Source: Escherichia coli (lineage in GTDB: Bacteria > Pseudomonadota > Gammaproteobacteria > Enterobacterales > Enterobacteriaceae). From it: a stretch of DNA of 64,000 nucleotides. Positions within the stretch are counted from its first letter, which is position 1, and each line of letters starts with the position of its first letter. The position numbers are program-made. Below are positions 39,101 through 45,100 of this stretch, one piece after another. Where the stretch lies: the NCBI RefSeq assembly GCF_013315695.1, contig NZ_CP054353.1; one strand, given 5' to 3'.

Positions 39101-42100
39101 GCAACTATTGCGGCGCGACAGTCTGCTACCGGCACTAAAACCGATACGCCGATTCAAAAAGTGCCACAGTCTATTTCTGTTGTGACCGCCGAAGAGATGG
39201 CGCTGCATCAGCCGAAGTCGGTAAAAGAAGCTCTTAGCTACACTCCTGGCGTTGCCGTGGGAACTCGTGGCGCATCCAACACTTACGATTACCTGATCAT
39301 CCGCGGATTCGCCGCTGACGGCCAAAGCCAGAACAACTATCTGAATGGCCTGAAGATGCAGGGCAACTTCTATAACGATGCAGTTATCGATCCGTATATG
39401 CTGGAGCGCGCTGAAATCATGCGTGGTCCGGTATCCGTGCTGTACGGGAAAAGCAGCCCTGGCGGCCTGTTGAACATGGTCAGCAAGCGCCCGACTACAG
39501 AACCGCTGAAAGAAATTCAGTTTAAAGCCGGTACTGACAGCCTGTTCCAGACTGGTTTTGACTTCAGTGATGCGCTGGATGATGACGGCGTTTACTCTTA
39601 TCGTCTGACTGGTATTGCGCGTTCAGCCAATGCTCAGCAGAAGGGGGCAGAAGAGCAGCGTTATGCTATTGCTCCAGCGTTCACCTGGCGCCCGGATGAT
39701 AAAACCAATTTCACTTTCCTTTCTTACTTCCAGAACGAACCGGAAACCGGTTATTACGGCTGGTTGCCGAAAGAGGGAACCGTTGAGCCGCTGCCGAACG
39801 GTAAGCGTCTGCCGACAGACTTTAATGAAGGGGCGAAGAACAACACCTATTCTCGTAATGAGAAGATGGTGGGCTACAGCTTCGATCACGAATTTAACGA
39901 CACCTTTACTGTGCGTCAGAACCTGCGCTTTGCGCAAAATAAAGTCTCGCAAAAGAGCGTATATGGCTACGGCATGTGCTCGGATCCGCTGTATACCAAA
40001 GACGACGATGCACTCAAGGCGAGTCCATGTTTAAGTATCCCGCAGTCAGAATGGAATCATACACTGACTCGTCAGTACGTTATCGATAATGAGAAATTAG
40101 AAAACTTCTCTGTTGATACTCAGTTGCAAAGTAAATTCGCAACCGGCTCGGTTGAACACACTCTGCTGACCGGCGTTGACTTTATGCGTATGCGTAATGA
40201 TATTGACTCCTGGTTCGGTTACGCCGGTTCCGTTGCACCGTCTGATATCTATAATTTAGACCGTAGTGACTTTGATTTTGGTGCTCACCCGGATCCGTCT
40301 GGCCCATACCGCGTTTTGCTTAAACAGAAACAAACCGGTCTGTATGTTCAGGATCAGGCGCAGTGGGATAAGGTGCTGGTGACTCTGGGTGGTCGCTATG
40401 ACTGGGCGGAACAGTCATCTTTCAACCGTGATTACGGTAATAAATCCGATCGTGATGACAAACAGTTCACCTGGCGTGGTGGCGTAAACTACCTGTTCGA
40501 CAACGGGGTAACGCCTTACTTCAGCTACAGTGAGTCGTTTGAGCCAGCATCTTTGACAGATGCAAACGGTGATCTGTTTGCACCTTCGAAAGGCAAACAG
40601 TATGAAGTTGGTGTGAAATATGTGCCGGAAGATCGCCCAATTGTGCTGACGGGCGCACTGTATCAGCTTACCAAAACCAACAACCTGATGGCGGATCCGA
40701 ATAATCCCAATTTCTCGATTGAAGGCGGTGAGATTCGCGCTCGTGGTGTAGAACTGGAAGCAAAAGCGGCGCTGTCGGCGAGTGTTAACGTAGTAGGTTC
40801 TTATACTTACACCGATGCGGAATACACCACCGACACTACCTATAAAGGCAATACGCCTGCACAGGTGCCAAAACACATGGCTTCGCTGTGGGCTGACTAT
40901 ACCTTCTTTGACGGTCCGCTTTCAGGTCTGACGCTGGGCACCGGTGGTCGTTATACTGGCTCCAGCTATGGTGATCCGGCTAACTCCTTTAAAGTGGGAA
41001 GTTATACGGTCGTGGATGCGTTAGTGCGTTATGATCTGGCGCGAGTCGGCATGGCTGGCTCCAACGTGGCGCTGCATGTCAACAACCTGTTCGATCGTGA
41101 ATACGTCGCCAGCTGCTTTAACACCTATGGCTGCTTCTGGGGCGCAGAACGTCAGGTCGTTGCAACCGCAACCTTCCGTTTCTAATTTCTCTTTTGGGGC
41201 ACGGATTTCCGTGCCCGTTTCACAAGTTGGCTGTTATGCAGGAATACACGAATCATTCCGATACCACTTTTGCACTGCGTAATATCTCCTTTCGTGTGCC
41301 CGGGCGCACGCTTTTGCATCCGCTGTCGTTAACCTTTCCTGCCGGGAAAGTGACCGGTCTGATTGGTCACAACGGTTCTGGTAAATCCACTCTGCTCAAA
41401 ATGCTTGGTCGTCACCAGCCACCGTCGGAAGGGGAGATTCTCCTTGATGCCCAGCAGCTGGAAAGCTGGAGCAGCAAAGCGTTTGCCCGCAAAGTGGCTT
41501 ATTTGCCGCAGCAGCTTCCTCCGGCAGAAGGGATGACGGTGCGTGAACTGGTGGCGATTGGTCGTTACCCGTGGCATGGCGCACTAGGGCGCTTTGGTGC
41601 GGCAGATCGCGAAAAGGTCGAGGAAGCTATCTCGCTGGTTGGCTTAAAACCGCTGGCGCATCGGCTGGTCGATAGTCTCTCTGGCGGCGAACGTCAGCGG
41701 GCGTGGATCGCCATGCTGGTGGCGCAGGATAGCCGTTGTCTGTTGCTCGACGAACCGACCTCGGCGCTGGATATCGCCCACCAGGTTGATGTGCTGGCGC
41801 TGGTGCATCGTTTAAGTCAGGAGCGTGGCCTGACGGTCATTGCCGTGCTGCACGATATCAATATGGCTGCGCGTTACTGTGATTATCTGGTCGCCCTGCG
41901 CGGCGGTGAAATGATTGCTCAGGGAACGCCTGCGGAAATTATGCGCGGCGAAACCCTCGAAATGATTTATGGCATCCCGATGGGTATTTTGCCGCATCCG
42001 GCGGGTGCTGCACCTGTGAGTTTTGTTTATTGATGAGCGGCTTACCTCTTATTTCGCGCCGTCGACTGTTAACGGCGATGGCGCTTTCTCCGTTGTTATG

Positions 42101-45100
42101 GCAGATGAATACCGCCCACGCGGCGGCTATTGATCCCAATCGTATTGTGGCGCTGGAGTGGTTGCCGGTGGAATTACTGCTGGCGCTCGGCATCGTGCCT
42201 TACGGCGTGGCGGATACCATCAACTATCGCCTGTGGGTCAGCGAACCGCCATTGCCGGACTCAGTGATTGACGTTGGTTTGCGTACAGAACCTAACCTTG
42301 AACTGCTGACCGAAATGAAACCATCGTTTATGGTCTGGTCGGCAGGATATGGCCCTTCACCAGAAATGCTGGGACGTATTGCGCCGGGTCGCGGATTTAA
42401 CTTCAGTGACGGCAAACAGCCGCTGGCGATGGCGCGTAAATCGCTGACGGAAATGGCAGATTTACTTAACCTGCAAAGCGCAGCAGAAACGCATTTAGCG
42501 CACTATGAAGACTTTATCCGCAGCATGAAACCCCGCTTTGTGAAGCGTGGTGCACGCCCGTTATTGCTGACGACGCTTATCGATCCGCGCCATATGTTGG
42601 TCTTCGGTCCAAACAGCTTGTTCCAGGAAATTCTCGATGAGTACGGCATCCCAAATGCCTGGCAAGGGGAAACCAACTTTTGGGGCAGTACCGCCGTCAG
42701 TATCGATCGTCTGGCAGCGTATAAAGACGTTGATGTGCTCTGTTTTGATCACGACAACAGCAAAGACATGGATGCGCTAATGGCAACCCCGCTGTGGCAG
42801 GCCATGCCGTTTGTCCGCGCCGGACGCTTTCAGCGCGTTCCGGCGGTCTGGTTCTATGGTGCGACGCTTTCTGCAATGCACTTTGTGCGTATTCTGGATA
42901 ACGCCATCGGAGGTAAAGCGTGAGTAAACGAATTGCGCTTTTTCCGGTGCTATTGCTGGTGCTGCTGGTGGTTGCTGCTGCGGCGTTGACCTGGATGAAC
43001 TTCTCGCAGGCGCTGCCGCGCAGCCAGTGGGCGCAGGCCGCCTGGTCGCCGGATATTGACGTCATCGAGCAGATGATTTTTCACTACAGCTTGTTGCCGC
43101 GTCTGGCGATTTCGCTGCTGGTGGGCGCGGGCCTGGGGCTGGTGGGCGTGCTGTTTCAGCAAGTGCTGCGTAACCCGCTGGCGGAACCGACGACGTTGGG
43201 CGTTGCAACAGGCGCGCAACTGGGGATTACCGTCACCACGCTCTGGGCGATCCCAGGTGCTATGGCGAGCCAGTTTGCTGCGCTGGCAGGGGCTTGTGTT
43301 GTTGGCTTAATCGTCTTTGGCGTCGCGTGGGGGAAACGGCTTTCGCCGGTAACGCTGATCCTCGCGGGGCTGGTAGTGAGCCTTTATTGCGGCGCAATCA
43401 ATCAGTTACTGGTTATCTTCCATCATGACCAACTGCAAAGCATGTTCCTGTGGAGCACCGGAACGCTGACGCAAACCGACTGGGGCGGCGTTGAGCGTTT
43501 ATGGCCGCAGCTGCTGGGCGGCGTGATGCTGACGTTATTGCTACTTCGCCCGTTAACTCTGATGGGGCTTGATGATGGCGTGGCGCGCAATCTCGGGCTG
43601 GCCTTGTCGCTCGCGCGTCTGGCGGCGTTGTCGCTGGCGATTGTCATCAGTGCGCTGCTGGTGAACGCGGTGGGGATTATCGGCTTTATCGGGTTGTTCG
43701 CGCCACTGCTGGCGAAAATGCTGGGGGCGCGGCGTTTGTTGCCACGGTTGATGCTGGCATCGCTGATTGGTGCGTTAATTCTGTGGCTTTCTGATCAAAT
43801 CATCCTCTGGCTGACTCGCGTGTGGATGGAAGTTTCCACCGGTTCGGTGACGGCGTTGATCGGTGCGCCGCTGTTACTGTGGCTGCTGCCGCGTTTACGT
43901 AGCATTAGCGCGCCGGATATGAAGGTCAACGATCGTGTCGCGGCTGAACGCCAACACGTGCTGGCGTTTGCCCTCGCGGGCGGCGTGCTGCTGTTGATGG
44001 CTGTGGTGGTGGCGCTGTCGTTTGGTCGTGATGCGCACGGCTGGACGTGGGCGAGCGGGGCGTTGCTCGAGGATTTGATGCCCTGGCGCTGGCCGCGAAT
44101 TATGGCGGCGCTGTTTGCGGGCGTCATGCTGGCGGTGGCGGGCTGTATTATTCAGCAGCTGACCGGAAACCCGATGGCAAGCCCGGAAGTGCTGGGGATT
44201 AGCTCCGGCGCGGCGTTTGGCGTGGTGTTAATGCTGTTTCTGGTGCCGGGTAATGCCTTTGGCTGGCTGTTACCCGCAGGCAGTCTCGGGGCGGCGGTGA
44301 CGCTGTTGATCATTATGATCGCCGCCGGACGCGGTGGATTTTCCCCACACCGCATGTTACTGGCGGGGATGGCGTTAAGTACCGCGTTCACCATGCTTTT
44401 GATGATGTTGCAGGCAAGTGGTGACCCGCGAATGGCGCAAGTTCTGACCTGGATTTCCGGTTCGACCTACAACGCGACCGAGGCGCAGGTCTGGCGTACT
44501 GGAATTGTGATGGTGATTTTGCTGGCGATTACCCCGCTGTGCCGCCGCTGGCTGACCATTTTACCGCTGGGAGGTGATACCGCACGAGCCGTGGGGATGG
44601 CGCTGACGCCGACGCGAATTGCGCTGCTGCTGTTAGCGGCTTGCCTGACAGCGACTGCGACAATGACCATTGGACCGTTGAGTTTTGTTGGTTTAATGGC
44701 ACCGCATATTGCGCGGATGATGGGCTTTCGACGGACGATGCCACACATCGTAATTTCGGCGCTGGTGGGTGGTTTACTGTTGGTGTTCGCTGACTGGTGT
44801 GGGCGGATGGTGCTGTTTCCATTCCAGATCCCGGCGGGGCTGCTGTCGACCTTTATCGGCGCGCCATATTTTATCTATTTGTTGAGAAAGCAGAGCCGTT
44901 AATAGGATGCCTCGCCCGGTGGGCGAGGCAAAATCATCACAACTTCGCAAACACCCGACGTGCAGCATCGATGGTGTTATTGATATCTTCCATGCTGTGC
45001 GCCACGGACATAAAGCCCGCTTCAAACGCTGACGGTGCCAGATAAACACCTTCATCCAGCATCATATGGAAGAAACGCTTAAAGCGTTCCACGTCACAGG

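What the first reader, a model, noticed from the sequence alone, without database searches (positions are those of the whole stretch)
42020..42930. Translationally coupled gene junctions in fhuCDB (and yadGH, folK-pcnB, btuF-mtn)
The fhuC stop and fhuD start overlap (tgATGagc), and the fhuD stop overlaps the fhuB GTG start (GTGA). The yadG/yadH pair overlaps by 4 bp, folK/pcnB by 4 bp, and the mtn stop lies 8 bp inside btuF. These overlaps support the operon calls and help choose start codons, but are otherwise ordinary.
Basis: seen in the sequence. Interest (0 to 1): 0.1.

Follow-up and report, generated by a model that had tools for sequence, protein, structure and literature searches.

The report
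Ordinary stop/start overlaps in fhuCDB operon
The end of each gene in the E. coli iron-siderophore importer operon fhuC-fhuD-fhuB overlaps the start of the next by 1 or 4 bases; these overlaps are real and kept in 80 related species, but they are the commonest, textbook way bacteria link neighbouring genes.

Summary
The window is an E. coli chromosome segment, 2 SNPs from strain MSB1_4I. The fhuC stop and fhuD ATG share one base (TGATG, 42031-42035). The fhuD stop and fhuB GTG share GTGA (42920-42923). yadG/yadH and pcnB/folK overlap by ATGA, and mtnN/btuF overlaps by 8 nt (ATGGCTAA).

In 80 Enterobacteriaceae species the fhuC/fhuD 1-nt overlap is kept in 80/80 (TGATG 55, TAATG 25). The fhuD/fhuB 4-nt overlap is also kept in 80/80 (ATGA 45, GTGA 35), with a GGAGG ribosome-binding site upstream. 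The other three pairs keep their spacing in the two or three other genera sampled.

Reassigning starts to remove the overlaps is implausible. fhuB has an in-frame stop one codon upstream. The fhuD twin-arginine signal motif needs the overlapping ATG.

Six overlaps among 38 same-strand neighbour pairs (16%), all of the -1, -4 or -8 classes, match published genome-wide norms. "Translationally coupled" remains an inference. fhuD and btuF lack a ribosome-binding site, which favours reinitiation. fhuB, yadH and folK have their own. The fhuCDB overlaps are already noted in the literature. Ordinary and already known.

The parts
41236..42033 (+). fhuC (ABC transporter ATPase); TGA stop at 42031-42033
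   Evidence: PGAP annotation of MSB1_4I. NCBIfam equivalog NF007863, residues 1-265 of 265, 576.7 bits against a cut-off of 433.
42031..42035 (+). fhuC/fhuD junction TGATG. The stop and start share the A at 42033 (-1 spacing). No Shine-Dalgarno sequence upstream.
   Evidence: Sequence read. Kept in 80/80 species as TGATG (55) or TAATG (25). Best anti-SD duplex only -2.2 kcal/mol.
42033..42923 (+). fhuD (periplasmic ferric-hydroxamate binding protein) with an N-terminal twin-arginine signal motif SRRRLL
   Evidence: NF007864, 550.7 bits. An RR motif lies within the first 20 residues in 80/80 orthologues when started at the overlapping ATG.
42909..42913 (+). GGAGG Shine-Dalgarno sequence for fhuB, inside the fhuD coding sequence, 6 nt upstream of the GTG at 42920
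   Evidence: Anti-SD duplex -10.8 kcal/mol. GGAGG or GGGGG is kept in nearly all of the 77 aligned species.
42920..42923 (+). fhuD/fhuB junction GTGA: GTG start 42920-42922, TGA stop 42921-42923 (-4 spacing)
   Evidence: RTGA is kept in 80/80 species (ATGA 45, GTGA 35). An in-frame TAA at 42914-42916 prevents any earlier start.
42920..44902 (+). fhuB (fused double permease)
   Evidence: NCBIfam NF007865, 1413.9 bits over the full length. PDB 7LB8 chain B has the same N-terminus, MSKRIALFP....
14128..14131 (+). yadG/yadH junction ATGA (-4), with an AAGGAG Shine-Dalgarno sequence upstream
   Evidence: The same ATGA is found in Salmonella arizonae and Kosakonia cowanii.
29274..29277 (-). pcnB/folK junction ATGA (-4), with a GAGGG Shine-Dalgarno sequence upstream
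   Evidence: ATGA in Salmonella arizonae and GTGA in Kosakonia.
49790..49797 (-). mtnN/btuF junction ATGGCTAA (-8); no Shine-Dalgarno sequence for btuF
   Evidence: The -8 spacing is kept in Klebsiella (GTGGCTAA), Salmonella (ATGGCTAA) and Kosakonia (GTGGGTAA).
   Evidence: The yadW ORF is not intact in Salmonella arizonae or Kosakonia.

Best explanation
These are ordinary, evolutionarily fixed stop/start overlaps between consecutive cistrons of operons: fhuC-fhuD-fhuB, yadG-yadH, pcnB-folK and mtnN-btuF. [quoted passage not shown] Translation of the downstream gene is therefore tied to translation of the upstream one (translational coupling).

My committed reading distinguishes two kinds of junction.

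- fhuD and btuF have no usable Shine-Dalgarno sequence. They are started mainly by the terminating ribosome itself (termination-reinitiation), as at trpE-trpD, which also has -1 spacing.
- fhuB (GGAGG 6 nt upstream), yadH (AAGGAG) and folK (GAGGG) carry their own ribosome-binding sites inside the upstream coding sequence. They can both retain the terminating ribosome and recruit new ones.

For FhuCDB this would help deliver the subunits of one complex (two FhuC, one FhuB, one FhuD) together.

Shown here: the overlaps, their positions, their conservation, the start-codon assignments, and the presence or absence of Shine-Dalgarno sequences. Inferred: that coupling actually occurs, and by which route.
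For: - The junction sequences are present and match the PGAP annotation of a genome 2 SNPs away.
- In 80 species-representative Enterobacteriaceae loci with 71-99% FhuD identity, the -1 fhuC/fhuD overlap is kept in 80/80. The -4 fhuD/fhuB overlap is also kept in 80/80, although flanking codon positions vary up to 4 ways.
- The fhuB start alternates between GTG (35) and ATG (45) at the same position. That is the signature of a true start codon.
- An in-frame TAA one codon upstream excludes an earlier fhuB start. The internal Met26 is not conserved (TWM, TWV, TWT, TWF).
- The FhuD twin-arginine motif lies 8-10 residues after the overlapping ATG in 80/80 loci.
- Anti-SD energies are fhuD -2.2, btuF -2.8, fhuB -10.8, yadH -8.5 and folK -6.2 kcal/mol.
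- The other three junctions keep their spacing in Salmonella arizonae, Kosakonia cowanii and, for mtnN/btuF, Klebsiella.
- Literature: -4, -1 and -8 are the three enriched spacings (PMC12548453). About 15% of co-directional pairs overlap, and 4 of 5 tested native E. coli -4 pairs are coupled (PMC6728339).
- The native fhuCDB operon cloned behind a single promoter yields the FhuC2-FhuB-FhuD complex. Its authors note the overlapping nucleotides (PMC8660799).
Against: - No experiment on these particular junctions was found, so coupling is inferred from geometry.
- One of five tested overlapping E. coli pairs (bioBF) showed no coupling.
- fhuB, yadH and folK have good ribosome-binding sites of their own and might initiate independently.
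- pcnB is translated poorly from an AUU start. Strict coupling would therefore starve the essential folK, which argues that folK relies at least partly on its own site.
- The three secondary pairs were checked in only two or three other genera.
Confidence: 0.8

Rival explanations
1. The overlaps are a neutral by-product of compact gene packing. A start codon already supplies three of the four bases of NTGA, so overlaps arise easily. The downstream genes initiate independently at their own ribosome-binding sites, with no functional coupling.
For: - fhuB, yadH and folK have strong or moderate Shine-Dalgarno sequences (-10.8, -8.5, -6.2 kcal/mol).
- The 2025 review attributes the abundance of -4 spacing to ease of evolution.
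- bioBF overlaps yet is not coupled.
Against: - Spacing is invariant in 80/80 species at both fhu junctions, while the stop codon (TGA/TAA), the start codon (ATG/GTG) and flanking wobble positions all change.
- fhuD and btuF have no recognisable Shine-Dalgarno sequence (-2.2 and -2.8 kcal/mol), so independent initiation there would be poor.
Confidence: 0.15
2. Coupling works by RNA unfolding. A hairpin hides the fhuB Shine-Dalgarno sequence and GTG, and is opened only by ribosomes translating the end of fhuD.
For: The minimum-free-energy fold of 42860-42950 pairs CAUCGGAG / AAAGCGUGA with fhuB codons 7-12.
Against: - The fold is no better than shuffled sequence (z = -0.89).
- RNAalifold finds no consensus pairs in 77 species.
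- For the named helix, 64.8% of cells pair, identical to the shuffled mean of 64.8%. There is no excess of compensatory changes.
Confidence: 0.04
3. One or more start codons are mis-assigned. The true starts lie downstream and the overlaps are annotation artefacts.
For: - In-frame alternative starts exist: fhuD Met16 at 42078, fhuB GTG/TTG codons 10-17 and ATG codon 26, and the second ATG of yadH at 14131.
- No N-terminal protein evidence was available here.
Against: - A downstream fhuD start would delete the conserved SRRRLL Tat motif (80/80).
- Downstream fhuB starts would delete the conserved basic N-terminus and part of the first membrane helix, and Met26 is not conserved.
- ATG and GTG interchange exactly at the overlapping positions of fhuB, folK and btuF.
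- The proteins match NCBIfam equivalog models from the first or second residue.
- The yadH alternative (ATGATG) would still overlap, by 1 nt.
Confidence: 0.02

Closest known systems
trpE-trpD translational coupling in E. coli (TGATG, -1 spacing; Oppenheim and Yanofsky, as summarised in PMC12548453)
   Same: The stop/start geometry is identical to fhuC/fhuD (TGATG, one shared base). Both are consecutive cistrons of one operon that encode interacting subunits.
   Different: Coupling at trpE-trpD was shown genetically. For fhuC-fhuD it is inferred only from geometry, the lack of a Shine-Dalgarno sequence and conservation.
NTGA (-4) overlapping gene pairs coupled by termination-reinitiation (hyfHI, astDB, ydbH/ynbE, menDH; Huber et al. 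2019, PMC6728339)
   Same: fhuD/fhuB, yadG/yadH and pcnB/folK have the same 4-nt overlap, with a Shine-Dalgarno sequence inside the upstream gene.
   Different: These three pairs were not among those tested. bioBF shows that the motif alone does not prove coupling.
fhuACDB operon of E. coli K-12 as described in the literature (for example the cryo-EM study of FhuCDB, PMC8660799)
   Same: Same genes, same order and same overlaps. The authors state that adjacent genes of the operon overlap, and they expressed the complex from the native operon.
   Different: Nothing of substance. This strain's fhu region is only 90-95% identical to most E. coli genomes, but the junctions are unchanged.

Membership tests
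Overlapping stop/start (spatially coupled) co-directional gene pairs, classes -1, -4 and -8 | [quoted passage not shown] | tested here: met
   TGATG at 42031-42035; GTGA at 42920-42923; ATGA at 14128-14131 and at 29274-29277 (-); ATGGCTAA at 49790-49797 (-).
Overlapping stop/start (spatially coupled) co-directional gene pairs, classes -1, -4 and -8 | The overlap depends on correctly assigned start codons | tested here: met
   An upstream in-frame stop lies next to the fhuB start. ATG and GTG alternate at the same position. The Tat motif and basic N-terminus are conserved. NCBIfam matches cover the full length.
Overlapping stop/start (spatially coupled) co-directional gene pairs, classes -1, -4 and -8 | The overlap is conserved in orthologous loci | tested here: met
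   80/80 species for both fhu junctions. Two or three further genera for yadGH, pcnB-folK and mtnN-btuF.
Translationally coupled gene pairs (functional definition) | [quoted passage not shown] | not testable with these tools
   This needs reporter fusions or premature-stop mutants. No published test on these pairs was found.
Translationally coupled gene pairs (functional definition) | The downstream start cannot initiate efficiently on its own, because it has a weak or absent Shine-Dalgarno sequence or a sequestered start region | tested here: inconclusive
   Met for fhuD (-2.2) and btuF (-2.8 kcal/mol). Not met for fhuB (-10.8), yadH (-8.5) or folK (-6.2). The candidate sequestering hairpin at fhuB has no covariation support.
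FhuCDB ferric-hydroxamate ABC importer | The three proteins match the FhuC, FhuD and FhuB equivalog models above the curated cut-offs, in the order C-D-B downstream of fhuA | tested here: met
   576.7 bits against 433, 550.7 against 252 and 1413.9 against 1107. Gene order. The N-terminal 100 residues of FhuB match PDB 7LB8 chain B (E = 2.6e-56).

The most novel reading that the evidence does not exclude
fhuD has no ribosome-binding site in any of the species examined, and its ATG sits at an invariant -1 position (80/80). Its synthesis may therefore depend obligatorily on ribosomes terminating at fhuC (70S or 30S reinitiation). That would hard-wire the FhuC:FhuD production ratio, which is unusual for a periplasmic binding protein, since these are often made in excess. 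This would make fhuC-fhuD a clean natural model of Shine-Dalgarno-independent reinitiation.
Probability: 0.4. Interest if true: 0.2.

Novelty: already known. Interest (0 to 1): 0.06.

Why it matters
It matters little beyond annotation quality. The overlaps confirm the operon structure and fix the start codons of fhuD, fhuB (a GTG start), yadH, folK and btuF. The cross-species data give a clean example of how invariant such junctions are (80/80) while the codons that form them change. For anyone engineering or deleting genes in fhuCDB, polar and coupling effects across these junctions should be expected.

Tried and rejected
1. A hairpin sequestering the fhuB Shine-Dalgarno sequence and GTG. It was predicted in the window but rejected. 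z = -0.89; there is no RNAalifold consensus in 77 species; pairing equals shuffled controls, 64.8% against 64.8%. Folds of the other four junctions were also no better than shuffles (z from -0.94 to +0.97).

2. Start-codon reassignment.
   - The TTG at 42030, one codon before the fhuD ATG, is not conserved, because it is formed by the last base of the fhuC Tyr codon plus TG of the stop. It would still overlap anyway.
   - fhuB Met26 is not conserved.
   - The longer btuF ORF from the TTG at 49824 is not used by PGAP or by other gene callers.

3. Literature searches for direct experiments on coupling or polarity within fhuCDB, pcnB-folK or mtnN-btuF. These found only statements of operon membership and overlap. 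The older primary papers (Koester and Braun; Burkhardt and Braun; Mademidis and Koester) were not found by these searches.

4. yadW/erpA as a conserved coupled pair. Rejected, because the yadW frame is broken in Salmonella arizonae and lacks a start in Kosakonia.
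Full report
**What the window is.**
- Megablast places window 38000-46000 and 1-24000 at 100% identity on the chromosome of E. coli strain MSB1_4I (NZ_LR898874.1).
- A base-by-base comparison finds only two differences in 64 kb, at 23210 and 44157.
- The NCBI PGAP annotation of that genome therefore transfers directly.
- The finding's coordinates, 42020-42930, are essentially the fhuD gene with its two junctions.

**The observation.** All junctions were read directly from the sequence.

| Pair (upstream / downstream) | Coordinates | Strand | Junction | Overlap |
|---|---|---|---|---|
| fhuC / fhuD | 41236-42033 / 42033-42923 | + | TGATG (stop 42031-42033, ATG 42033-42035) | 1 nt |
| fhuD / fhuB | 42033-42923 / 42920-44902 | + | GTGA (42920-42923) | 4 nt |
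| yadG / yadH | 13205-14131 / 14128-14898 | + | ATGA | 4 nt |
| pcnB / folK | 29274-30671 / 28798-29277 | - | ATGA | 4 nt |
| mtnN / btuF | 49790-50488 / 48997-49797 | - | ATGGCTAA | 8 nt |

The transcriptional order is pcnB then folK, and mtnN then btuF.
- A sixth annotated overlap was missed: yadW 47887-47952 / erpA 47945-48289 (ATGAGTGA, 8 nt). This is understandable, because YadW is a 21-residue protein.
- From the annotation, 6 of 38 same-strand neighbour pairs in the window overlap (16%), and all have -1, -4 or -8 spacing.

**Gene identity.**
- FhuC, FhuD and FhuB match their NCBIfam equivalog models over their full length and above the curated cut-offs: 576.7 against 433, 550.7 against 252 and 1413.9 against 1107 bits.
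- The FhuB N-terminus equals that of chain B of the cryo-EM structure 7LB8.

One scan of the species-representative genome collection with FhuD returned 80 loci from Escherichia, Citrobacter, Salmonella, Klebsiella, Raoultella, Enterobacter, Kosakonia, Kluyvera, Leclercia, Lelliottia, Phytobacter, Trabulsiella and others, at 71-99% FhuD identity. I located the fhuC stop, the fhuD start and stop, and the fhuB frame in each locus.
- The fhuC stop and fhuD ATG share one base in 80/80 loci (TGATG 55, TAATG 25).
- An RTG start overlaps the fhuD TGA in 80/80 loci (ATGA 45, GTGA 35). It is in the fhuB frame in 79. The exception, Leclercia NCTC13032, has a frame break about 38 codons in.
- Flanking columns vary up to four ways, while the junction columns are fixed or two-state.
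- Independent gene calls in Klebsiella, Salmonella arizonae and Kosakonia cowanii give the same 1-nt and 4-nt fhu overlaps.
- By walking along these genomes I also recovered the other junctions:
  - mtnN/btuF at -8 in all three (GTGGCTAA, ATGGCTAA, GTGGGTAA);
  - pcnB/folK at -4 in two (ATGA, GTGA);
  - yadG/yadH at -4 in two (ATGA, ATGA).

**Could start-codon reassignment remove the overlaps?**
- fhuB:
  - An in-frame TAA at 42914-42916 lies one codon before the GTG, so no earlier start exists.
  - ATG replaces GTG at the same position in 45 species.
  - The basic N-terminus and first hydrophobic stretch are conserved, whereas Met26 of E. coli is not.
- fhuD:
  - The only candidates at the 5' end are the TTG at 42030 and the ATG at 42033. 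Both overlap fhuC.
  - The TTG is an accident of the fhuC Tyr codon plus the stop, and it is not conserved.
  - The next in-frame ATG (Met16) would delete the SRRRLL twin-arginine motif. That motif is present within the first 20 residues in 80/80 orthologues.

**Mechanism.** I scored pairing of each upstream region with the 16S rRNA 3' end.

| Gene | Anti-SD duplex (kcal/mol) | Ribosome-binding site |
|---|---|---|
| fhuD | -2.2 | none |
| btuF | -2.8 | none |
| fhuB | -10.8 | GGAGG, 6 nt from the GTG |
| yadH | -8.5 | AAGGAG |
| folK | -6.2 | GAGGG |

- The published picture:
  - -4, -1 and -8 are the enriched spacings.
  - About 15% of co-directional pairs overlap.
  - Four of five tested native E. 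coli -4 pairs are coupled by termination-reinitiation, with a variable contribution from the Shine-Dalgarno sequence.
- On that basis, the most likely reading is that fhuD and btuF are started by the ribosome that has just terminated. fhuB, yadH and folK combine reinitiation with some independent initiation.
- This is inference. bioBF shows that overlap does not guarantee coupling.
- pcnB is translated weakly from AUU. folK therefore probably relies substantially on its own site.
- The alternative RNA-unfolding route was tested at fhuB. A predicted hairpin covering the Shine-Dalgarno sequence and GTG has no statistical or covariation support.

**Comparison with what is known.**
- Expression of the native operon from one promoter yields the FhuC2-FhuB-FhuD complex.
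- The geometry equals the classical trpE-trpD (-1) case and the generic NTGA (-4) case.
- Nothing here departs from the known kind.

**Verdict.** Novelty: already known. Interest is low (0.06). The only mildly interesting residue is that fhuD lacks a Shine-Dalgarno sequence and has an invariant -1 junction. That would make it a good natural test case for obligate reinitiation.

Noticed in passing
The yadW frame contains a stop in Salmonella arizonae and lacks an ATG in Kosakonia. It therefore looks like a lineage-restricted upstream ORF rather than a conserved coupled partner.
   Followed up: partly
L008:4388-4480, L011 and L013 (Citrobacter youngae, C. gillenii, C. portucalensis): These loci are 75 nt longer just after the overlapping GTG of fhuB, because of a REP-like palindromic element (GCCGGATGGCGGCGC...GCGCCTTATCCGGCCTAC...GGATAAGGCGAAGCCGCCATCCGGC). 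It is in frame and open in all three species, so FhuB would gain about 25 N-terminal residues encoded by a REP element. The GTGA overlap is retained. The fold is -38 kcal/mol with z = -2.1.
   Followed up: partly
window 30669-30671 (-): pcnB is annotated with the non-canonical ATT start codon. This matches the published AUU initiation of poly(A) polymerase I. Weak pcnB translation bears on how far folK could depend on coupling.
   Followed up: partly
window 20449-24344 (-): The yad fimbrial operon is decayed in this strain. An IS1A element (21106-21803) splits the fimbrial adhesin gene into two fragments (20449-21078 and 21844-22491). The neighbouring fimbrial subunit gene (23785-24344) is frameshifted. 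Strain MS 21-1 has the intact adhesin.
   Followed up: no
window 38000-46000: This fhuA-fhuCDB-hemL stretch is only 90-95% identical to 4202 of 5424 E. coli genomes, and at least 99% identical to just 6. The first 24 kb of the window is at least 95% identical in most records. This is consistent with known diversity of the fhuA phage-receptor region.
   Followed up: no
L047 (Leclercia adecarboxylata NCTC13032), about 4500: The fhuB reading frame breaks about 38 codons after the overlapping ATG. This is either a frameshift or a long-read assembly error. It is the only one of the 80 loci where the overlapping start is not in the frame of the main FhuB match.
   Followed up: no
window 41186-41235 and 38900-38926: fhuA and fhuC also have very weak Shine-Dalgarno sequences (-2.9 and -3.3 kcal/mol). 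fhuC starts 50 nt after fhuA without overlap. Three of the four fhu cistrons therefore lack a good ribosome-binding site.
   Followed up: no
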